IMG/VR virus record: IMGVR_UViG_3300037565_000037
DNA length: 43,891 nucleotides
Reading direction: 5' to 3' (one strand)
Origin: a virus
Made by a program: the position numbers and the translations under genes. Every line of letters begins with the position of its first letter. The stretch's first letter is position 1. Of the stretch, positions 1 through 43,891 are shown in pieces. The notes below the pieces were generated by a model. That model worked only from the letters and a program-made list of their open reading frames with translations. It did not search any database and was not told the DNA's origin.

Positions 1-127
1 TTCGAACAGCGTTCACACCATCAAGCTTTGTGGCCATTGATATAAGTTGCGGGTTCAGACCATGCTGCCGCATTGTTTCGACGCGGGTCTTTCCAGTTCC
101 CCACTCTTTCACCTTTGCGTCGTGAGG
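1..127. repeat. Terminal overlap, identical to 43765..43891
   Basis: Direct base-by-base comparison: ttcgaacagcgttcacacc...cgtcgtgagg present at both ends. Confidence 0.97.
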
Positions 128-2101: not shown

Positions 2102-2140
2102 AATGAGAAAACCCGCCCCACCACTAAGGATGAGACGGGT
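2102..2140 (-). terminator. Intrinsic terminator closing the tRNA/ncRNA transcription unit
   Basis: Minus-strand RNA ACCCGUCUC-12 nt loop-GGGGCGGGU (9 bp including 2 G:U) followed by UUUUCUCAUUC. On the plus strand the same positions are C:A mismatches, so the hairpin is minus-strand specific. Confidence 0.75.
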
Positions 2141-2477
2141 CTTGGCGAACTCCATTACGGAGATTAGTCAGCGGCGACCGGGTGAGAAAGGTATCGCCAA
2201 TCCTTCGGGCGGTGTTGCGAGCACCGTTTGCCCCTTATCGACTTACACCGGGATAACCCAGATGCGACCGCTGATCTAAGCGACCCCTCGGTATTGAGCC
2301 TCTACCTCTCTGATCAGGAGAATGGGGCAGAAGCCTGAGGGGTCTATGGGGTCGGGACTCTCTCCAGTTGAGTTACGATTGCTTTCAAGCCGTGCACGGC
2401 CTAACGCTCCACAATCGACGGGGCTCGAACCCGCATCTCCCGATCTCTTTGCGCCTGCTCTAGGGCAATGCGCTGAA
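2141..2477 (-). ncRNA. Unclassified structured noncoding RNA containing a permuted tRNA-like module
   Basis: No credible ORF. Many local helices on the minus strand: GACCCCUC/GAGGGGUC 8 bp, CUGGG-UUAU-CCCGG, CGGUG-CUCGCAA-CACCG, GGCGA-18 nt-UCGCC, CUCC-GUAAU-GGAG. Sits between tRNA-Asn and the terminator. Confidence 0.6.
2343..2446 (-). ncRNA. Circularly permuted tRNA-like module (positions 37-73, 27-nt capped spacer, positions 1-39)
   Basis: T arm GCGGG-TTCGAGC-CCCGT (2434..2418). Acceptor 3' strand CGATTGT (2417..2411). Spacer hairpin GCCG-TGCA-CGGC (2400..2389). Acceptor 5' strand GCAATCG (2382..2376) pairs 7/7. D arm ACTC-AACTGGAGA-GAGT. CCGAC (2355..2351) pairs with ATCGG (2444..2440). 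No CCA encoded. Confidence 0.6.
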
Positions 2478-2553
2478 TGGCTGGACCGGCAGGACTCGAA
2501 CCTGCGACATGGTGGTTAACAGCCACCCGCTCTACCAGCTGAGCTACGGACCA
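2478..2553 (-). tRNA. tRNA-Asn (anticodon GTT), 76 nt, CCA encoded
   Basis: Hand-folded cloverleaf: TGGTCCG-TA-GCTC-AGCTGGTA-GAGC-G-GGTGG-CTGTTAA-CCACC-ATGTC-GCAGG-TTCGAGT-CCTGC-CGGTCCA-G-CCA; one U:U mismatch at 4:69. Confidence 0.85.
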
Positions 2554-2560
2554 TTTTGCC

Positions 2561-2634
2561 TGGTTCCCGCGCTTGGATTCGAACCAAGATTTGCGGAGCC
2601 AAAATCCGCTGTCCTACCGTTAGACGACACAGGA
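2561..2634 (-). tRNA. tRNA-Gln (anticodon TTG), 74 nt, CCA encoded
   Basis: TCCTGTG-TC-GTC-TAACGGTAG-GAC-A-GCGGA-TTTTGGC-TCCGC-AAAT-CTTGG-TTCGAAT-CCAAG-CGCGGGA-A-CCA; two G:U pairs in the acceptor stem. Confidence 0.8.
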
Positions 2635-2653
2635 CAACGTTATTGTCGAAACT

Positions 2654-2728
2654 TGGCAAAGGTGGAGGGATTCGAACCCCCATCTTTGGTTTTGGAGACC
2701 AACGTCATAGCCATTAGACCACACCGAT
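2654..2728 (-). tRNA. tRNA-Trp-like (anticodon CCA), 75 nt, weak acceptor stem
   Basis: ATCGGTG-TG-GTCT-AATGGCTA-TGAC-G-TTGGT-CTCCAAA-ACCAA-AGAT-GGGGG-TTCGAAT-CCCTC-CACCTTT-G-CCA; mismatches at 2:71 and 3:70. Confidence 0.6.
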
Positions 2729-2829
2729 GCATGGTCAACGCCAGAGCTGAATAGGGTCAGGAGAAATGAAGGGCGCAATCTCGCGGCCAAAGCCTGGATC
2801 ATTCTCTTTCATCGCGCTCTCCTGTGAAT

Positions 2830-2902
2830 TGGAGGCCTGCCGGGAATCGAACCCGGAACCCAGAAGCCTGAGCCACCGGCTCTACCATTGAGCTACAAGG
2901 CC
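2830..2902 (-). pseudogene. Degenerate tRNA-like gene (Gly-type backbone, 73 nt)
   Basis: Good D arm (GCTC-AATGGTA-GAGC) and T arm (CCGGG-TTCGATT-CCCGG), T-CCA end. The acceptor has a bulged T, and the anticodon stem GGTGG/TTCTG has no Watson-Crick pairs (loop CTCAGGC). Confidence 0.5.
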
Positions 2903-2934
2903 ATAATTCCTGATCGGTCACAGTTCTCCGATCA

Positions 2935-3519
2935 TCATTTGCCGTCAAATACACGCACGGCTGACATTGTACTCTCAGAGATACCATAATTTGCCAACCT
3001 TGCCAACCGTCTTTTGTACTTTTCTTCCTTATCATGCAAAATTTGTGCACGGACTTGTTCAGGAGTGCATTTTTCGTGCGAGTCCGTCGCGTAGAACAGG
3101 CTTCTTGCCAAATCCCACACTTCCTGCCTGATATCCTCAGTCGGGAAATGCCTGTTCAACTTCAAGCCAGTTTCAATGGTTGCGATGTATGCTTCTTCCA
3201 TTGCCTCTTTTGGGCTAATAGAGAACCACTCACCTGCTGAGTGCAAACCGGCAGCGCAGAGCTTATTGTGCAGATGCTTTTCCATCTGTCGGGCCTGATG
3301 AACTGTCTCAAGCCAAAAGCTGCCATGGATCTTTACCGGCTCCCAGCAACCTGTCTGGATGCCTCCAAGCCTTTTGTAAGCGTTGATCGAAATGCCTATC
3401 TTTGTGACAGACTTCTCTTCAGGGCCAACGAAATAAATATGGCAATGAGGGAGCTTGTATTTTTTGAAGTCGATCAGCCAGGACAGAGCCTCAATATCGC
3501 TCGACCAATCCTGCACCAT
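2935..3519 (-). CDS. T5orf172 / GIY-YIG-superfamily domain protein
   Basis: Motif pattern IYFVG...VTKIGISINAYKRLGGIQTG...HLHNKL...GEWF recalled as the T5orf172 domain. Start chosen at ATG 3519 (1 nt after the upstream stop); the ORF is open to 3627. Confidence 0.6.
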   Translation of the reverse strand: MVQDWSSDIEALSWLIDFKKYKLPHCHIYFVGPEEKSVTKIGISINAYKRLGGIQTGCWEPVKIHGSFWLETVHQARQMEKHLHNKLCAAGLHSAGEWFSISPKEAMEEAYIATIETGLKLNRHFPTEDIRQEVWDLARSLFYATDSHEKCTPEQVRAQILHDKEEKYKRRLARLANYGISESTMSAVRVFDGK

Positions 3520-3520
3520 T

Positions 3521-3955
3521 TCACTTCTTTGGTTCTGCACCTGTTCTGAACGCATTAAACCATGCCTCCTGTACCGCATCTCTGTAACGACGCCGCATCG
3601 TCTCGTCGCTACGACCAACGCGATCACCCATTTGCTTGAAGCTTAAGTCAAAAGAACGCCACCAGATCAAACTCCAAGCTTTCTTTTCGAGTCCTCGCGT
3701 CCAACTCAAAGCAATTATACAGTCTGACACGTCAAAAGGCTTTGGTGTAAACCTGTTATCCACCTCTTCTACACTATTATATGCATCAATTGCATCTTGA
3801 ACATACTCAGGCCATCCGTTGTTATATCTTTGAAACCTGCGCTCTTTGTCTGGCATAGAGCGAAGTGTCTTCATGGCTCGGAGCAAGCGCTCTTCCACCT
3901 CGTTAATGGTTACCCTTGTTTCCGGTGCCGTTGATTTAATCGCCGCATTGTTCAT
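3521..3955 (-). CDS. Putative late-gene transcriptional activator (sigma70 region-4-like HTH)
   Basis: C-terminal LSFKQMGDRVGRSDETMRRRYRDAV resembles a region-4 HTH; last regulatory-looking gene before the RNA array and late operon. Confidence 0.35.
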   Translation of the reverse strand: MNNAAIKSTAPETRVTINEVEERLLRAMKTLRSMPDKERRFQRYNNGWPEYVQDAIDAYNSVEEVDNRFTPKPFDVSDCIIALSWTRGLEKKAWSLIWWRSFDLSFKQMGDRVGRSDETMRRRYRDAVQEAWFNAFRTGAEPKK

Positions 3956-4807: not shown

Positions 4808-5154
4808 TGACCTTTTTCTGCGATAAAATAGGTAGAGCCGTTTGGAAACATGTCGGTGTTGTTTCCTGTTCGTCGGTCACAAGCCGTCTCAATGGCATTC
4901 GCGAACCAGCCAAAGACCAAATCAACATCAGACGGGTCTTTGCAGATTTGCACGAACGCCTCTGCCCATTTCTGAGCGTCATCACCGCAGATTTTGTTCA
5001 GCTCTGACCCCACAAGTCTTGTGTAATCAGTTGCGCGAAGCTTGAGCTGACGGCTTTCCTCCCACTCCGCTTCTCCGAGGGTTCTGACCCTGGCAATCAT
5101 CTCTCCGCCAATAAACACCTCGTACTGACCCAGCTCGTTCTGACAGATTGCCAT
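4804..5154 (-). CDS. Hypothetical protein (116 aa)
   Basis: ORF track; coupled to the downstream ORF. Confidence 0.6.
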   Translation of the reverse strand: MAICQNELGQYEVFIGGEMIARVRTLGEAEWEESRQLKLRATDYTRLVGSELNKICGDDAQKWAEAFVQICKDPSDVDLVFGWFANAIETACDRRTGNNTDMFPNGSTYFIAEKGQ

Positions 5155-6319: not shown

Positions 6320-6883
6320 CTATGCTGCGTCCCAAAGCTGGCCAGTTGACCGGGTGAGGTGATCGCGGGCAGCATCTTCAAGCCTCTGCGCGTTGAGCAA
6401 CGCAGTCGCGTAGTCGAACGGTTCTTCTACGTCTCCCATATCTGCCCGCTTCAACAGCAAGATTGCCCGTATTTTGTGCGCCCTCAGAAGGGCCTTGAGA
6501 TGCTCCCTGCACTCGTACCGGCTCTTTGCCTTGTTATCCTCGACCTCGTAGTTCCGGAGCGGCTTGAACATGTCCAGACCGCGAACGCCGTGGTTCCACC
6601 TGTCGCGCAACGCATTCACGCTCACACCAATCTCCTGAGAAATCATCTGTATAGTGTAAGCTTTCCCGTCGTGATAAACGATTGCTTCGGGCAACTTGAA
6701 AGCAAGTTTCCCCAATATCTTCTTGTTTTTTTTGCGCCACAGAAATATTTCGTACGGCAAACCAGCATCATTACAAAACTCACGTGCCGTTTTTGTCACG
6801 CCATCGACTTTGTAATACTCGTCCAGTGCTTCACGATCTTCTTTTTCGCGCTGTGCTGTTGTTACGTTGTCCATTGCTCTCAT
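6320..6883 (-). CDS. Hypothetical protein (187 aa)
   Basis: ORF track; ATGA coupling at 6880..6883. Confidence 0.6.
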   Translation of the reverse strand: MRAMDNVTTAQREKEDREALDEYYKVDGVTKTAREFCNDAGLPYEIFLWRKKNKKILGKLAFKLPEAIVYHDGKAYTIQMISQEIGVSVNALRDRWNHGVRGLDMFKPLRNYEVEDNKAKSRYECREHLKALLRAHKIRAILLLKRADMGDVEEPFDYATALLNAQRLEDAARDHLTRSTGQLWDAA

Positions 6884-7272
6884 CCTGCTGCTTTGAGTTC
6901 AATCGGCTTCAGAAGCTCGGCTTTCACCTCTTCCCGCTTCTTCAAGATCACGTGGCGCTTTGGATGGTGCTCCGTGCCGCGCTCGATCTTGTCAAAGTCC
7001 ATGACCAAGGCTTCGCACTCCTCGCCGTTCGGGAGCCGGTGCTGGTGCTGGACAAAGTCGATAAGGTTGATGTGCCAGCCATCGCGGCAGGCGTTTTGTG
7101 TCAGTTCCCGGCCATAGCGGCGAAGCCAGTTAACGGTTTCCGGCGTCGTCCATCGGGGCACTTCAACCGTCTCCATGATCGGAGATCCGTCGTTGTGCCT
7201 GCGCAATCCGCCATTGGGGTCTTTCGCCTGACGGGTGGTGTACTTCTGCCAACTCTTGAACATTCCCATCAC
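6880..7272 (-). CDS. Hypothetical protein (130 aa)
   Basis: ORF track; ATGA coupling at 7269..7272. Confidence 0.6.
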   Translation of the reverse strand: MMGMFKSWQKYTTRQAKDPNGGLRRHNDGSPIMETVEVPRWTTPETVNWLRRYGRELTQNACRDGWHINLIDFVQHQHRLPNGEECEALVMDFDKIERGTEHHPKRHVILKKREEVKAELLKPIELKAAG

Positions 7273-8150
7273 GCGGATTCCTTCATCGATTGTCGGAGAT
7301 TGATGGCGACATCAGCCGGGATTTTGATATGCTCCTGCCCTGACCTGACGGCGTACGGCAGGAACTTCTTTGCCCAATGAACGGCTTCATCGAACAGTTC
7401 CGGTTCTTCGTGGCTGCTGATCAGTATTTGCTCGGAAGAGTGCACGAGTTGAGGTTTTGACGGCTGCGTGTACTGCTCCCAACCGGCTTGGTTCAGCCAG
7501 GTTGTTACTTGCTGGGTGTACTGCGCATCCTGCCCAGCCCTTGCTCTGGCGTAACCAATCGCGCCCTGAAGCATCTCCTCAGCAGGTACTCCGCCCTTGA
7601 TGCGGCCTTGCCATTTTTTGAATGCAGGCTCTTTTGGGTTGTTTCCCTTCCGCTTGGGAAAGGCTTCCCAAAACTTTTCAAAATCCTGATGATATTTCCC
7701 CTTGGGGGATTTAGGGGGAGATTCTGGTATTCCTTCTGGTATTTCATCCTTATTTAGTATTGTCCCGGTGCTGTCCCGGTGCTGTCCCGGTGCTGTCCCG
7801 ATAGGTGTCTTTTTACCGTTCGGCGCATTCTGAAACTTCTCATAATTACAGACAGTTATGCGCGTTACTCCTGTCTCTGTGTCTGTCCCGATATTTTTAT
7901 CTTGAGTTAACGCATCAAGAAACCGCTCTACCTTGGTTTTCTTCCAACCCCAGATTTGAGCAAGCCCACGAACGGCAACGGCCAACTGTCCACGCTGCAA
8001 TTCAACAACAGAAGAACCGATGCGCACCGTGCGCTCTTTCCAAGATGCTTCAGAGACGATCCAAAGCCACGCCTCACGCTTCGTGAAAGGCTCATTAGGA
8101 AACTGAGGGTCTGTCCAGATGGACCGGCAAACGCTAAATGTGTTGCTCAT
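7269..8150 (-). CDS. Replication initiator / replisome-organizer-like protein
   Basis: N-terminal winged-helix-like region (CRSIWTDPQF...REAWLWIV...) typical of phage replication-organizer proteins; contains an iteron array inside the gene, as lambda O does. Confidence 0.6.
   Translation of the reverse strand: MSNTFSVCRSIWTDPQFPNEPFTKREAWLWIVSEASWKERTVRIGSSVVELQRGQLAVAVRGLAQIWGWKKTKVERFLDALTQDKNIGTDTETGVTRITVCNYEKFQNAPNGKKTPIGTAPGQHRDSTGTILNKDEIPEGIPESPPKSPKGKYHQDFEKFWEAFPKRKGNNPKEPAFKKWQGRIKGGVPAEEMLQGAIGYARARAGQDAQYTQQVTTWLNQAGWEQYTQPSKPQLVHSSEQILISSHEEPELFDEAVHWAKKFLPYAVRSGQEHIKIPADVAINLRQSMKESA
7761..7800. repeat. Iteron array, 4 copies of TGTCCCG at exact 11-bp spacing (putative ori)
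   Basis: tgtcccggtgc tgtcccggtgc tgtcccggtgc tgtcccg; the fourth copy reads CTGTCCCGATA. Confidence 0.8.
7881..7891. repeat. Fifth iteron copy CTGTCCCGATA followed by an AT-rich stretch
   Basis: Exact repeat of the 11-mer ending the main array, followed by tatttttatcttgagttaa. Confidence 0.6.
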
Positions 8151-18210: not shown

Positions 18211-18456
18211 GTGAACTACACTCCTGATCAGCTCGCCGCCAGATGGGGCGTAACTTCAAACGCCATCAGATCTATGTGCAACCGCAATGAGCTTGACCAC
18301 TTCCGTGTTGGTCGCTTGTATCGTATCCCTGCTTCAGCAGTGGAGGCGAAAGAGTGCGGTACAGGCTTGTCAAATACCGAGGTAACTACGCCGTCGCCTG
18401 GACGGAGGGCGGGGCAACAGTTCGACGATCACTTAGAACAGATAACCGGGATGTAG
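18211..18456 (+). CDS. xis: Excisionase-like HTH protein
   Basis: QLAARWGVTSNAIRSMCNRNELDHFRVGRLYRIPASAV matches the excisionase/MerR-type HTH; directly upstream of int; the 3' end overlaps the int start by 103 nt. Confidence 0.6.
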   Translation: MNYTPDQLAARWGVTSNAIRSMCNRNELDHFRVGRLYRIPASAVEAKECGTGLSNTEVTTPSPGRRAGQQFDDHLEQITGM

Positions 18457-19328
18457 CAGAACTCCGCTATAAACGCGCGTTGGCGGAGATGAATAAGCCG
18501 CCGTCAAAACTTGTGGCCGACATATGGGTCGCATGCGAAAAAGACAAGAAGGCTCAGGGAAAGACAATCGGCCAGAACATGCATTTCCATTGGAAGGCGA
18601 TAGGGCCTTTCTTCGGAAGGATGGAAGCCGAGGCAATCACCAAAGAGGATTGCCGAAAATACGCGGAGAAGCGCAGAGCCGAGGGCCGCGCGGAAAGCAC
18701 CATAGCCACCGAACTCAAACACCTTCGGCTCGCTCTCAACTGGGCCGCAAAGGGACAAGATCCGATCAAAGCGCCTTTCATTGAGGTGCCAGCGGATTCA
18801 GACCCGCGCAATCGCTATCTAACCAAAGCGGAGATGCGCAAGCTCATTGACAACGTGAAAAGCCCCCACATAGGCGTAGCAATGGAGTTGCTGCTGGCAA
18901 CCGCTGGCCGTGTCGGGGCTGTTTTGGAATTGACGTGGGACCGCGTGGATTTTGAGCGCGGTAAGATCCAGCTCAAGAAATCAGAAAAAGGCAAAGGCCG
19001 CGCCGTGGTGGCAATGTCAGACCGGATAAGATCCGTTCTGGAAAAAGCCCACCATGACCGCACATGCGAATATGTCGTTGAGTATGCCAGCGGTCCCGTC
19101 AAATCCATTCGCAAAGGTATAGCCAATGCAGCTGCACGGGCTGGTGTCGAGGACGTATCGCCTCATGTGTTTCGGCACACTGCCGCCGTCTGGATGGCGG
19201 AAGACGATCAAAGCATGGAAGAGATCGCACAGTTTCTAGGGCATCGTGACGTATCTGTGACCCGTCGAGTGTACGCCAGGTACAGCCCGGAGCACCTGAA
19301 GCGAGCGGCGAAGTCTCTAGAGTTCTGA
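18354..19328 (+). CDS. int: Tyrosine integrase
   Basis: C-terminal catalytic pattern ATAGRVGAVLELTW...HVFRHTAAVWM...LGHRDVSVTRRVYARY (R, H-x-x-R, H, Y); GTG start with GGAGG RBS. Confidence 0.9.
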   Translation: MRYRLVKYRGNYAVAWTEGGATVRRSLRTDNRDVAELRYKRALAEMNKPPSKLVADIWVACEKDKKAQGKTIGQNMHFHWKAIGPFFGRMEAEAITKEDCRKYAEKRRAEGRAESTIATELKHLRLALNWAAKGQDPIKAPFIEVPADSDPRNRYLTKAEMRKLIDNVKSPHIGVAMELLLATAGRVGAVLELTWDRVDFERGKIQLKKSEKGKGRAVVAMSDRIRSVLEKAHHDRTCEYVVEYASGPVKSIRKGIANAAARAGVEDVSPHVFRHTAAVWMAEDDQSMEEIAQFLGHRDVSVTRRVYARYSPEHLKRAAKSLEF

Positions 19329-20352: not shown

Positions 20353-21030
20353 CTACTCTTTCTCGTCTTTTGCGGCCAATTTCAGAAGAGCCGCCTTGCG
20401 TTCCGGTTCGAAATGCCTGCGCAGTGTTGCGACGGCATAACCGTATTTGTCCTTCAGCTTTCGCCATGACATCGCCGGGTCGCAGACATCCTTGCGCAGG
20501 GCCTTGAGCTGTGCCGGGTCTTCCTTTTCCAGTCGCTCGATCAGCGTGTCAGGCCCTGGGGACCAACCACGTTTCCGGGCCGCGTCCATTCCGGCCTTGG
20601 TGCGCTCTGAAGTCAGATCCCGTTCAAGCTGCGCCAATGACGCCAGCAGGTGAAACATGAAGTTTCCCATAGCGCTGCGCGTGTCGATCTGGTCACGCAG
20701 GCTGACGAAATTCACCTTTTCCCGCTTCAGCATATCCATGAAGCTGATCAGCTCGCCGACATCCCGGCCCAGGCGGTCCAGCTTCCAGACCACCAGCGTG
20801 TCACCTGGCGAAAGATGCTTCTTCAGGATTTCAAGCTGCTTGCGTTTAACCCCGTAGGCTGACCGTTTTTCACTGAAGATGTACTCGCAGCCGTGTTCCT
20901 TAAGAGCACGCATCTGCATGTCTAGGTTCTGGTCTTCAGTGCTGACGCGGGCATAGCCGTACACGCGGGTTTCAGTCTCCGTTTTGTCGTTGTTCTCAAT
21001 CACAGCGGCCCGTCTTTTTCGAATTTTCAA
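20353..21030 (-). CDS. Serine recombinase (resolvase/invertase family)
   Basis: YGYARVSTEDQNLDMQ...LVVWKLDRLGRD...SLAQLERDLTSERTKAG is the canonical resolvase N-terminal catalytic domain; the true start may be the internal GTG at 20964. Confidence 0.9.
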   Translation of the reverse strand: MKIRKRRAAVIENNDKTETETRVYGYARVSTEDQNLDMQMRALKEHGCEYIFSEKRSAYGVKRKQLEILKKHLSPGDTLVVWKLDRLGRDVGELISFMDMLKREKVNFVSLRDQIDTRSAMGNFMFHLLASLAQLERDLTSERTKAGMDAARKRGWSPGPDTLIERLEKEDPAQLKALRKDVCDPAMSWRKLKDKYGYAVATLRRHFEPERKAALLKLAAKDEKE

Positions 21031-43486: not shown

Positions 43487-43891
43487 TTAGACTGATATCC
43501 TTGTCTTAAGCTGCGGCTTTGGAGCGCCCGGAAGCATGACCGAGCCGGGTGGAGGCGCGGGCTTTTCGGTCACTTCAACCTTTGGAGCATGCTTCCAGGC
43601 CATCGCGAGATAGCGGAAAGCGTCTGCAAGGTGAGACGTCCAGTCATGCACCTCAGTCGCCTTGAAACACTTCTTGTCGTCGTCCCACTCACGCCGGTAT
43701 TGTTCCAGCGCCGAGATACCGACGTCTTCACACTTTGGATCGAACACACACAGCGGGAGGAGCTTTCGAACAGCGTTCACACCATCAAGCTTTGTGGCCA
43801 TTGATATAAGTTGCGGGTTCAGACCATGCTGCCGCATTGTTTCGACGCGGGTCTTTCCAGTTCCCCACTCTTTCACCTTTGCGTCGTGAGG
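43487..43891 (-). CDS. terL: Terminase large subunit, C-terminal part (continues from 1..1072 across the junction)
   Basis: ORF 43487..43876 begins at an internal GTG; the frame is open to the window end and identical to the frame at 1..127. Confidence 0.9.
   Translation of the reverse strand, partial: PHDAKVKEWGTGKTRVETMRQHGLNPQLISMATKLDGVNAVRKLLPLCVFDPKCEDVGISALEQYRREWDDDKKCFKATEVHDWTSHLADAFRYLAMAWKHAPKVEVTEKPAPPPGSVMLPGAPKPQLKTRISV
43765..43891. repeat. Terminal overlap, identical to 1..127
   Basis: Same 127-nt string as window start. Confidence 0.97.

What the first reader, a model, noticed from the sequence alone, without database searches (positions are those of the whole stretch)
2102..2477. 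Circularly permuted tRNA-like gene fused to a ~240-nt structured RNA
On the minus strand, 4 nt after tRNA-Asn, the order of elements is as follows. First a leader hairpin (2473..2451). Then AG-ATCGG (tRNA positions 37-43), GAGAT (variable loop) and the T arm GCGGG-TTCGAGC-CCCGT. Then the acceptor 3' strand CGATTGT plus G. Then a 27-nt spacer holding the perfect hairpin GCCG-TGCA-CGGC. Then the acceptor 5' strand GCAATCG, which pairs 7/7 with CGATTGT (G1:U72). Then T-A and the D arm ACTC-AACTGGAGA-GAGT with G18G19. Then C-CCGAC (27-31), which pairs with ATCGG, and finally CCCAT-AGA. Joined at the shared AGA, the two parts rebuild a 74-nt cloverleaf with CAT at positions 34-36. The DNA order, however, is 37-73 followed by 1-39, so the acceptor stem is capped and the anticodon stem is open. 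No CCA is encoded, although all four neighbouring tRNAs encode it. The 3' flank (2342..2141) is densely helical and ends in a terminator whose G:U pairs form only on this strand. Both halves break at exactly the same anticodon-loop position, which argues against two independent truncations. The topology matches permuted two-piece tmRNA genes of alphaproteobacteria, the tRNA-mimic domain of YrlA-type Y RNAs, and permuted tRNA genes of Cyanidioschyzon. None of these fits. There is no G3:U70, no plausible tag ORF, no rsr gene here, and bacteria lack the splicing endonuclease used for permuted tRNAs.
Basis: partly seen in the sequence, partly recalled or inferred. Interest (0 to 1): 0.8.

Follow-up and report, generated by a model that had tools for sequence, protein, structure and literature searches.

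The report
tRNA-shaped plug-in in phage leader RNA
A temperate phage carries a perfectly tRNA-shaped RNA domain, with a closed acceptor end and no anticodon arm of its own, plugged into a conserved "socket" of a non-coding leader RNA in front of its packaging genes; sister phages hold unrelated RNA domains in the same socket, so it is a lineage-specific tRNA mimic or captured module, not a broken or permuted tRNA gene.

Summary
On the minus strand, 2446-2343 reads T arm, then a 7-bp acceptor stem capped by a 27-nt hairpin, then a D arm, all closed by a short helix. Re-joining the two halves gives a sequence that ARAGORN calls tRNA-Met(CAT). No Rfam family reaches threshold; the best match is YrlA at 26 bits (gathering score 69). 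There is no tmRNA and no intron.

The interpretation needs correcting. Four related phages (L012, L013, L107, L014) share the flanks but not the tRNA body.
- The 5' hairpin, AAAGAG and the closing helix ("stem P", UCGG/CCGA) recur, each time around a different insert. The helix covaries.
- L107 is 99% identical through the tRNA array up to ATCGG, then carries an unrelated 207 nt.
- L012 keeps CCGAC-CCCATAG-hairpin H2 without any tRNA-like part.

So the "anticodon stem and CAU" belong to a conserved scaffold. The element sits in a hypervariable, terminator-ended leader between a DUF6362/T5orf172 gene pair and the packaging genes.

Best reading, at moderate confidence: a lineage-specific tRNA mimic shaped like the YrlA RNA of M. 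smegmatis and probably cut by RNase P. The rival reading is a neutral captured cassette. The module is seen in this one phage lineage only, so its function is unproven.

The parts
2831..2902 (-). First tRNA of the array. It has an aberrant anticodon loop: ARAGORN reports 'tRNA-???' with anticodon (ca).
   Evidence: Rfam tRNA, 38.3 bits. L107 has a normal tRNA-Thr(CGT) at this position.
2735..2812 (-). 25-codon ORF with an AGGAG ribosome-binding site, lying between tRNAs (MKENDPGFGREIAPFISPDPIQLWR).
   Evidence: Read. A 39-aa homologue with the ISPDPIQL motif lies directly before the leader hairpin in L013.
2478..2728 (-). tRNA-Trp (2728-2654), tRNA-Gln (2634-2561) and tRNA-Asn (2553-2478). All three encode CCA.
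   Evidence: 99% identical in L107.
2451..2473 (-). Conserved 5' hairpin of the socket (GCGC-A-UUGC-CCUAGA-GCAG-GCGC).
   Evidence: Present in the window, L012, L013 and L107. Substitutions: U-A to U.G in L012, and the bulged A2469 to C in L107.
2439..2450 (-). AAAGAG linker plus the 5' strand of the closing helix, stem P (A-UCGG-G).
   Evidence: AAAGAGATCGG is identical in the window, L012, L013 (twice) and L107. Identity to L107 stops exactly at 2440.
2418..2438 (-). Variable-loop-like AGAU (2438-2435; its first base, G2439, is listed with stem P), then the T arm GCGGG-UUCGAGC-CCCGU (2434-2418).
   Evidence: Rfam YrlA local alignment.
2376..2417 (-). 7-bp acceptor stem (CGAUUGU 2417-2411 with GCAAUCG 2382-2376; G1.U72, A3-U70). 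It is capped by G2410 plus a 27-nt loop with an 8-bp hairpin (core GCCG-UGCA-CGGC, 2400-2389). No CCA is encoded. The predicted RNase P site is between A2383 and G2382.
   Evidence: The cleavage site is inferred by analogy with M. smegmatis YrlA (PMC4201824).
2357..2375 (-). U8-A9 and the D arm ACUC-AACUGGAGA-GAGU, with G18G19 and A15 (pairing with U48).
2344..2356 (-). 3' strand of stem P (C-CCGA-C), then the single-stranded CCCAUAG.
   Evidence: Identical in L012, which has no tRNA-like insert. Stem P covariation.
2282..2344 (-). Hairpin H2 (GACCCCUC ... GAGGGGUC, with an inner 10-bp and 4-bp stem).
   Evidence: Predicted folds. Shared with L012, with a G.U to G-C change. Absent from L107 and L013.
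2164..2279 (-). Variable domain 2: a long irregular stem closed by UUAG.AUCAGCGG / CCGCUGA.CUAA.
   Evidence: Replaced by unrelated sequence in L012 and L014. A short version with the same closing stem is in L100.
2150..2162 (-). Small hairpin H3 (CUCC-GUAAU-GGAG).
   Evidence: Identical in the window, L012, L014 and L006.
2104..2143 (-). Intrinsic terminator. The stem is rich in G.U pairs, so it forms on the minus strand only. It ends in UUUUCUC, directly before the ribosome-binding site and ATG (2087) of the 94-aa first late gene.
   Evidence: Compensatory G-C to U-A change in L012 and L014. A homologous terminator precedes the same gene in L011, L013 and L107.

Best explanation
Window 2477-2104 (minus strand) is the distal part of a non-coding, terminator-ended leader transcript of a temperate phage of alphaproteobacterial type. 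It follows a four-tRNA array and lies immediately upstream of the packaging (late) operon.

The RNA is modular. A conserved 'socket' consists of the 5' hairpin, AAAGAG and a closing helix (stem P, UCGG/CCGA). In different phages this socket holds different stem-closed RNA domains.

In this phage the plugged-in domain (2439-2356) is a complete tRNA body without an anticodon arm of its own. It has a 5-nt variable loop, a T arm, a 7-bp acceptor stem whose ends are joined by a 27-nt hairpin loop, U8-A9, a D arm and nucleotide 26. Stem P stands where the anticodon stem would be. That arrangement is why the DNA reads like a circularly permuted tRNA.

I take it to be an expressed tRNA mimic with the same topology as YrlA-type Y RNAs. 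It most resembles M. smegmatis YrlA, which has a 7-bp acceptor stem.

Inferred mechanism:
1. The L-shaped fold is recognised by tRNA enzymes.
2. RNase P cuts between A2383 and G2382.
3. The 3' trailer is trimmed and CCA may be added.
4. The leader becomes a two-piece RNA held together by the acceptor helix and stem P.

The result would be either a processing or stability handle for the tRNA-array transcript, or a decoy for a host factor that binds tRNA.

Shown here: the fold, the strand, the scaffold and its covariation, the genomic context, and the absence of the module from relatives.

Inferred only: transcription, cleavage and biological role.
For: tRNA-likeness:
- ARAGORN calls the re-joined halves tRNA-Met at its default threshold.
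- The Rfam YrlA model aligns T arm, capped stem and D arm at 26.2 bits, E = 0.0025 in 701 nt.
- All helices are free of mismatches and the elbow nucleotides are intact.
- Connector lengths are exactly those of a tRNA: 0 nt between T stem and acceptor, 2 nt at positions 8-9, 1 nt at position 26, and 5 nt in the variable loop.

It is an RNA read from the minus strand:
- G.U pairs occur in the T stem, acceptor stem, H2 and terminator.
- Between the window and L012 there are 5 substitutions in 185 scaffold nt. Four lie in helices and all four keep pairing: U-A to U.G, G.U to G-C, and a compensatory G-C to U-A.

The socket is real:
- AAAGAGAUCGG is followed by five different inserts (window, L012, L013 twice, L107).
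- Each insert is closed by its own complementary strand: 88.9% of cells pair, against 27-42% when the partner is slid. The covariation score is 0.489 against 0.02-0.11.
- Independent minimum-energy folds all predict the helix.

Other points:
- The module is not a copy of any neighbouring or related tRNA. Identity to every tRNA in the loci is at most about 58% (44 of 76 aligned columns). INPHARED matches have E of 0.2 or worse.
- Precedent: M. smegmatis YrlA is cut by RNase P and receives CCA (PMC4201824).
- Context: the gene pair, then a promoter-like site, a leader with terminator and the late genes recur in L011, L015, L100-L103 and L106. tRNAs are often present in the leader.
Against: - The tRNA-like module occurs in a single phage lineage. 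All available copies are 100% identical, so there is no covariation or conservation evidence for the module itself.
- The closest relative, L107, does without it.
- The region is a recombination mosaic. It also contains tRNA debris elsewhere (L016:220-292).
- The YrlA score is far below the gathering score. A plain tRNA-tRNA junction in the same window scores nearly as high (23.6 bits).
- There are no expression data, and no promoter could be placed confidently in the window.
- The stem P alignment was hand-anchored on CCGA, which favours pairing.
Confidence: 0.45

Rival explanations
1. Neutral recombination product. The late-leader slot is a hypervariable mosaic. A piece of a tandem tRNA dimer (3' half, spacer, 5' half) was captured between the inverted 4-nt microhomologies TCGG and CCGA of stem P. 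It has not yet decayed and has no function of its own.
For: - Block-wise mosaicism with borders at near-100% identity.
- L107 has the same tRNA array and terminator but a different cassette.
- Other leaders hold tRNAs and a degenerate pseudo-tRNA (L016).
- The module is found in one lineage only.
- Acceptor complementarity would be inherited automatically from a dimer of one tRNA.
Against: - No candidate donor tRNA was found in the phage, in 80 related loci or in INPHARED.
- The neighbouring tRNAs all encode CCA, but the module does not.
- The junctions reproduce tRNA connector lengths exactly, and there is not a single mismatch or decayed tertiary nucleotide.
- The other inserts in this socket are also stem-closed, structured and non-coding. 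That suggests the slot is selected to display RNA domains.
Confidence: 0.3
2. Cis-acting part of a late-gene leader. The whole structured RNA, module included, serves transcription control (antitermination or attenuation at terminator 2143-2108) of the packaging operon. The tRNA-like fold would matter only as a stable, protein- or RNAP-binding structure.
For: - The position matches simpler relatives: DUF6362/T5orf172 pair, TTGACA-type promoter, short leader with terminator, then terminase genes (L011, L015, L106).
- The terminator and ribosome-binding-site block is the most conserved part.
- The terminator shows a compensatory change.
Against: - Relatives manage with leaders of 100-200 nt that lack these domains.
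- The variable domains differ completely between phages that share the same terminator and first late gene.
- No alternative antiterminator pairing that involves the module was found.
Confidence: 0.1
3. A true Y RNA of the YrlA family that recruits the host's Ro60/Rsr protein.
For: - The order and shape match the YrlA effector domain.
- YrlA RNAs occur in phages and in Rhizobium etli (PMC4201824).
Against: - 26.2 bits against a gathering score of 69, and only model positions 23-86 align.
- There is no GNCGAAN0-1G motif.
- No TROVE protein was found among the ORFs of 277 aa or more that were scanned against Pfam. The portal and major head protein were checked against PHROGs only, and the large terminase not at all.
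- The published criterion of lying within 4 kb of rsr fails.
Confidence: 0.06
4. A two-piece (permuted) tmRNA-like molecule, as in the ssrA genes of alphaproteobacteria.
For: - The gene order is acceptor piece, intervening loop, then a roughly 240-nt 'coding' piece.
- The host range is probably alphaproteobacterial.
Against: - A3-U70 instead of G3.U70, a full D arm, and no CCA.
- No tmRNA call by ARAGORN, and no Rfam tmRNA-family hit at E of 10 or below.
- Only sub-threshold pseudo-tags appear (for example AQYRGVA*), and they lie inside the H2 stem.
- The 3' part is a swappable mosaic.
Confidence: 0.03
5. A genuine permuted tRNA-Met/Ile2 gene, matured through a circular intermediate or ligation into a working tRNA.
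For: The re-joined halves score as tRNA-Met(CAT).
Against: - C33 and a C31.A39 mismatch.
- No bulge-helix-bulge pairing between the leader and the trailer.
- The 'anticodon' halves are scaffold sequence, present without a tRNA body in L012, L013 and L107.
- From general knowledge, bacteria have no splicing endonuclease.
Confidence: 0.03

Closest known systems
YrlA-type bacterial Y RNAs (Rfam RF02553), especially M. smegmatis YrlA
   Same: Same 5'-to-3' order: closing stem, variable loop, T arm, capped acceptor-like stem, D arm, closing stem. The acceptor stem is 7 bp as in M. smegmatis YrlA, which RNase P cuts and which then receives CCA. No CCA is encoded. Members are known from phages.
   Different: No Ro60/rsr gene, no GNCGAAN0-1G motif, and a score of 26 bits against a gathering score of 69. 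It is embedded in a roughly 370-nt leader RNA behind a tRNA array. The closing helix is a socket shared with non-tRNA inserts.
Two-piece (circularly permuted) tmRNA of alphaproteobacteria (RF01849)
   Same: Gene order of acceptor 3' side, intervening loop, then acceptor 5' side plus a long 3' domain. The host clade is probably the same.
   Different: No G3.U70, no CCA, a complete D arm, no tag reading frame, and no model hit.
GOLLD and ROOL phage RNAs
   Same: Large structured non-coding RNAs of phages near tRNA islands. GOLLD has a conserved part and a variable part that sometimes holds tRNAs (PMC12286853).
   Different: Much smaller, with no Rfam match. The embedded tRNA-like body is attached through its anticodon-stem side with the acceptor end closed, not as a colinear tRNA.
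Permuted tRNA genes of Cyanidioschyzon merolae
   Same: The 3' half precedes the 5' half and the two together form a cloverleaf.
   Different: No bulge-helix-bulge motif, no splicing endonuclease in bacteria, no conservation in relatives, and a non-canonical anticodon loop.
Lambdoid late leaders (pR'-6S RNA-tR'; tRNA genes downstream of Q in Stx phages) and the stable RNAs of the T4 tRNA cluster. This comparison rests on general knowledge and was not tested here.
   Same: A short terminated transcript between a regulator gene and the late operon. tRNA genes and extra small stable RNAs are co-transcribed in that slot.
   Different: No sequence relation. The regulator here would be a DUF6362/T5orf172 pair, which is uncharacterised.

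Membership tests
YrlA / bacterial Y RNA (RF02553) | Infernal score at or above the Rfam gathering score (69 bits) over the full model | tested here: not met
   26.2 bits, model positions 23-86 of 114 only. The tRNA-Gln/Asn junction scores 23.6 bits as a control.
YrlA / bacterial Y RNA (RF02553) | tRNA-like domain: T arm, capped acceptor-like stem and D arm, enclosed by a stem | tested here: met
YrlA / bacterial Y RNA (RF02553) | GNCGAAN0-1G motif near the 5' end (the putative Ro60 contact; PMC4201824) | tested here: not met
   A regex search over 2480-2100 finds none.
YrlA / bacterial Y RNA (RF02553) | Encoded within about 4 kb of a Ro60/Rsr (TROVE) gene on the same strand | tested here: not met
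   No TROVE hit in the Pfam scans of the flanking ORFs or of the ORFs of 277 aa or more that were scanned. The portal and major head protein were checked against PHROGs only, and the large terminase not at all.
YrlA / bacterial Y RNA (RF02553) | Bound by Ro60/Rsr | not testable with these tools
   Needs co-immunoprecipitation in the unknown host.
Two-piece tmRNA (RF01849 and relatives) | Detected by ARAGORN (including permuted tmRNA) or by the Rfam tmRNA models | tested here: not met
   Only sub-threshold ARAGORN artefacts appear at -ps70.
Two-piece tmRNA (RF01849 and relatives) | G3.U70 alanine identity pair and an encoded 3' CCA | tested here: not met
   A3-U70 and G1.U72. The sequence after G73 is GAG.
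Two-piece tmRNA (RF01849 and relatives) | Tag reading frame with a resume codon and a hydrophobic C-terminus | tested here: not met
   Three-frame translation. No credible tag. The candidate AQYRGVA* lies in the H2 helix.
Permuted tRNA gene (Cyanidioschyzon type) | The 3' half lies upstream of the 5' half, and the two together form a canonical cloverleaf | tested here: inconclusive
   ARAGORN accepts the joined sequence. However, position 33 is C and 31:39 is a mismatch.
Permuted tRNA gene (Cyanidioschyzon type) | Leader and trailer form a bulge-helix-bulge at the junction | tested here: not met
   The whole-element fold pairs neither flank: AAAGAG (2450-2445) and CCCAUAG (2350-2344) stay single-stranded. 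A leader-against-tail duplex search gave only a gapped pairing far downstream.
Permuted tRNA gene (Cyanidioschyzon type) | The permuted arrangement is conserved at the orthologous locus | tested here: not met
   L107, L012 and L013 carry unrelated inserts. There are none in 80 loci related through the large terminase.
Canonical tRNA (RF00005) | Colinear cloverleaf in the genomic order | tested here: not met
GOLLD / ROOL / group I intron / other Rfam families | Covariance-model match | tested here: not met
   No hit at E of 10 or below in 1950-2650, and none in relatives at E of 1 or below.
Intrinsic terminator | GC-rich hairpin plus a U-tract, with pairing conserved | tested here: met
   (compensatory G-C to U-A). 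The simple scanner missed it.

The most novel reading that the evidence does not exclude
The conserved hairpin, AAAGAG and stem P form a previously undescribed RNA 'socket' in the late leaders of a group of temperate alphaproteobacterial phages. The socket displays interchangeable structured RNA cargos, making it an RNA-level counterpart of protein-coding accessory or anti-defence hotspots. In this reading the cargo here is an acceptor-capped tRNA mimic that RNase P turns into a two-piece RNA. It would act as a decoy or sponge for a tRNA-directed host factor, such as an anticodon nuclease or a modification or repair enzyme, working alongside the neighbouring phage tRNAs.
Probability: 0.2. Interest if true: 0.75.

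Novelty: new variant of a known kind. Interest (0 to 1): 0.5.

Why it matters
If it is functional, this would be a tRNA mimic with YrlA topology outside any Ro60 context, built into a phage leader RNA next to a tRNA array. It would also show that phages exchange structured RNA domains at a defined helix, in the way they exchange protein-coding accessory genes. That would give a concrete and testable entry point (RNase P cleavage, decoy activity) into why phages carry tRNA arrays and tRNA-like RNAs. If it is only a captured fragment, it is still a clean example of how permuted tRNA-like topologies such as tmRNA and Y RNAs could arise by recombination at a short inverted repeat.

Tried and rejected
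Searches that found nothing:
- DNA similarity to INPHARED phages, for both the element and 25 kb of the window: no match.
- Plasmids: only tRNA-Asn matches.
- Exact or IUPAC pattern scans for the T arm plus acceptor, for hairpin H3 with the sequence that follows it, for the start of H2 and for the leader hairpin, in viral contigs, metagenome contigs and genome contigs: all zero. The public JGI sample that holds the phage is evidently not in those collections. The genome and metagenome leader patterns would also have missed the L107 variant (GCCTTGCC).
- IMG/VR relatives of the 148-aa protein (L002, L003) and 80 loci related through the large terminase carry no copy of the module or the scaffold.

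Ideas rejected:
- Group I intron or permuted intron-exon arrangement: no Rfam hit and no internal guide sequence near the 'splice site' (and direct reading).
- attP remnant: the integrase is 16 kb away.
- Coding potential: only short ORFs without support.
- Derivation from a neighbouring tRNA: identity of about 58% at most.
- Pairing between the leader and the 3' domain: only a weak, gapped duplex.

Not pursued to a conclusion:
- A distant homology of the scaffold in L103 (CCUAGAG hairpin, CCCAUAG, a 12-mer AGATCGGGAGAT shared with the window; p about 0.03) was left open as unconvincing.
- RNAalifold on the odd roughly 104-nt tRNA-like RNA of L013 and L102 gave no sensible fold.
Full report
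**1. What is in the sequence.**
The window is a complete, circularly assembled phage genome of about 43.8 kb. Positions 1-127 repeat 43765-43891. It encodes a portal, a major head protein, SSB, a DnaD-like replication protein, a Rad52-like protein, a tyrosine integrase and a serine resolvase. The nearest deposited relatives are Rhizobium phage RHph_I3_18 (51% portal identity) and Brucella phages. The host is therefore probably an alphaproteobacterium.

On the minus strand there are four tRNA genes at 2902-2478. Every one of them is present at the stated coordinates.

- Re-joining the 5' part (2382-2346) to the 3' part (2446-2410) gives a 74-nt sequence that ARAGORN calls tRNA-Met(CAT) at its default threshold. 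The native order gives nothing.
- The T loop (UUCGAGC), G18G19, U8, A14, A21, the A15:U48 pair and G53 are all canonical.
- All four helices are free of mismatches. The connectors have tRNA lengths.
- Two things are not canonical: position 33 is C, and 31:39 is a C.A mismatch.

The 381-nt stretch folds far better than shuffled sequence (z = -3.76). Its minimum-energy structure contains the closing helix, the acceptor stem, the cap hairpin, a long hairpin H2 (2344-2282), a long irregular stem VD2 (2279-2164), a small hairpin H3 (2162-2150) and a terminator (2143-2108).

The region is identical in five independent metagenome assemblies (over the full 874 nt in three of them), so it is not an assembly artefact.

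**2. Known families.**
- Rfam at gathering thresholds finds only the four tRNAs.
- With permissive thresholds on 701 nt, the only relevant hit is YrlA (Y RNA-like) at 26.2 bits against a gathering score of 69. It covers just the tRNA-like core of the model.
- The ordinary tRNA-Gln/tRNA-Asn junction scores 23.6 bits to the same model. This is the 'dimeric tRNA' false positive that the YrlA authors warned about (PMC4201824). What sets the element apart from such a junction is that its two acceptor strands pair 7 of 7.
- No tmRNA model, intron model or large-ncRNA model matches. ARAGORN finds no tmRNA. The acceptor stem has A3-U70, and no tag frame is credible.
- There is no GNCGAAN0-1G motif. 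No TROVE/Ro60 ORF was found among the ORFs scanned against Pfam.

**3. Relatives change the picture.**
DNA searches of the public collections found nothing. Exact-protein look-ups of variants of the flanking genes did recover diverged phages.

- L107 has the same Trp-Gln-Asn array and leader hairpin. There are 3 differences in 311 nt, one of them the bulged A2469. Identity stops exactly after ATCGG (window 2440). It resumes, at 100%, at 2145, which is the terminator block.
- In between, the window's 294 nt (tRNA-like module, CCCATAG, H2, VD2, H3) are replaced in L107 by an unrelated 207 nt.
- L012 keeps the leader, then has an unrelated 63-nt insert. It then has CCGAC-CCCATAG-H2 almost identical to the window, a different VD2, and then H3 and the terminator.
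- L013 has AAAGAGATCGG twice, each time followed by a different insert.
- L014 and L006 share only the 3' end.
- A covariance model of the module finds no second copy in these loci or in 80 IMG/VR loci related through the large terminase.

So the 'anticodon-stem halves' and the 'CAU' belong to a scaffold that exists without any tRNA body. The 'common break point' is the border of a swappable insert.

**4. The scaffold behaves like RNA.**
- In all five instances the conserved UCGG is matched by a downstream CCGA. The helix continues with different, complementary bases: G-C, U-A, U-A, U.G and C-G at the fifth pair.
- 88.9% of cells pair, against 27-42% when the partner is slid. The covariation score is 0.489 against 0.02-0.11. 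One caveat: I anchored the 3' strands by hand.
- Independent folds of each relative predict this helix.
- Between the window and L012 the scaffold differs at 5 of 185 positions. Four lie in helices and all four keep pairing. Two of these (U-A to U.G and G.U to G-C) are neutral only on the minus strand, and one pair is a compensatory G-C to U-A change in the terminator.

**5. Context.**
In L100-L106 a DUF6362 gene overlapped by a T5orf172 gene is followed by a leader ending in an intrinsic terminator and then the small-terminase or late genes; a TTGACA-type promoter-like sequence is readable after the pair in L106. L011 and L015 have a different upstream gene but the same promoter-like sequence, terminated leader and late genes. 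Simple relatives have leaders of 100-200 nt. Others hold tRNAs (L016 Phe, L103 Met, L107 Thr/Trp/Gln/Asn) and a degenerate pseudo-tRNA (L016:220-292).

The element therefore sits in a hypervariable 'late-leader' slot. From general knowledge, this resembles the pR'-6S-tR' region of lambdoid phages, where Stx phages also keep tRNA genes. I could not place a convincing promoter in the window itself.

**6. Interpretation.**
The best-supported description is a modular non-coding leader RNA whose conserved socket displays, in this phage, a tRNA body attached through the anticodon-stem position with its acceptor end closed. That is the topology of YrlA RNAs. The 7-bp acceptor stem, with single-stranded nucleotides on both sides of the cap hairpin, matches the M. 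smegmatis YrlA that RNase P cleaves and that receives CCA in vivo (PMC4201824).

I therefore commit, at about 0.45, to an expressed tRNA mimic that RNase P cuts at A2383/G2382 to give a two-piece RNA. It would serve as a processing or stability handle or as a decoy.

The main rival, at about 0.3, is a neutral, recent capture of part of a tRNA dimer at the TCGG/CCGA microhomology.
- Against that rival: there is no donor tRNA, CCA is absent although all neighbouring tRNAs encode it, the geometry is flawless, and every other insert in this socket is also a stem-closed, non-coding, structured domain.
- Against my own reading: the module is seen in one lineage with zero sequence variation, and its closest relative lacks it.

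Membership of the YrlA, tmRNA and permuted-tRNA families was tested and failed on defining features.

**7. Verdict.**
The 'permuted tRNA(CAU) gene' reading is not supported. The element is best filed as a new variant of the tRNA-mimic kind, embedded in an undescribed modular phage leader RNA. Interest is moderate (0.5): the thing is real and unusual, but it is seen in one lineage only and nothing is known about its expression.

Noticed in passing
window 2831-2902 (-); L107:5148-5223; L013:~1690-1795; L102:~4945-5050: The first tRNA of the array has an aberrant anticodon loop (ARAGORN reports 'tRNA-???', anticodon 'ca') and an irregular acceptor stem. At the same position L107 has a normal tRNA-Thr(CGT). 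L013 and L102 instead have a conserved RNA of about 104 nt with a T arm, an acceptor stem (one covarying pair, G-C to A-U) and CCA. Neither ARAGORN nor Rfam recognises it.
   Followed up: partly
window 2735-2812 (-); L013:1807-1926: A 25-codon ORF with a strong AGGAG ribosome-binding site sits between tRNAs. A 39-aa homologue sharing the ISPDPIQL motif lies directly before the leader hairpin in L013.
   Followed up: partly
window 2935-3955 (-); L100-L106: A DUF6362 gene overlapped by a T5orf172/MUG113 gene is conserved immediately upstream of the late leader in many related phages. The DUF6362 C-terminus looks like a sigma-70 region 4 helix-turn-helix. The pair is a candidate late-gene regulator.
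   Followed up: partly
L013:1926-2260: AAAGAGATCGG occurs twice, flanking a roughly 290-nt segment that contains a 61-aa ORF. This looks like a tandem duplication of the socket or an insertion at it.
   Followed up: partly
window 2920-2950 (-) and L013:1645-1678: A conserved hairpin GAUCGG-AGAACUGUGA-CCGAUC lies at the start of the leader. GATCGG also recurs in stem P, so it may be a shared protein- or RNAP-binding motif.
   Followed up: no
L016:220-292: A degenerate tRNA-like sequence follows tRNA-Phe in another late leader. It has two T-arm-like hairpins, a UUC anticodon arm and CCA, but its acceptor stem is mismatched (tRNA-Sec model 24.5 bits, E = 0.72).
   Followed up: partly
L006:66-132: A sub-threshold match to the DUF3800-VIII RNA motif (30.3 bits against a gathering score of 40.2) lies just downstream of the homologue of the window's terminator.
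   Followed up: no
window 7761-7800: An 11-nt unit TGTCCCGGTGC is repeated about 3.6 times in tandem inside the DnaD-like replication gene (7269-8150). These may be origin iterons.
   Followed up: no
window 6320-6883 (-): A 187-aa ORF has a borderline Csx1-type HEPN domain hit (23.4 bits against a cut-off of 23). A phage HEPN RNase encoded near a tRNA array could be relevant to tRNA cleavage or defence.
   Followed up: no
window 1-127 and 43765-43891; 18354-19328 (+); 20353-21030 (-): A 127-nt terminal duplication shows that the contig is a circular complete genome. The large-terminase gene spans the ends. The phage carries both a tyrosine integrase and a serine resolvase.
   Followed up: partly
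L102:5121-5197, L103:2258-2335, L107:5619-5689: Another conserved structured block (GAGATGCGAACCACTTGCATTGACCG...GGGTCGCGAACCGAAAGAGCG) is shared at 85-96% identity by three otherwise different leaders. It is a second candidate RNA module of this slot.
   Followed up: no
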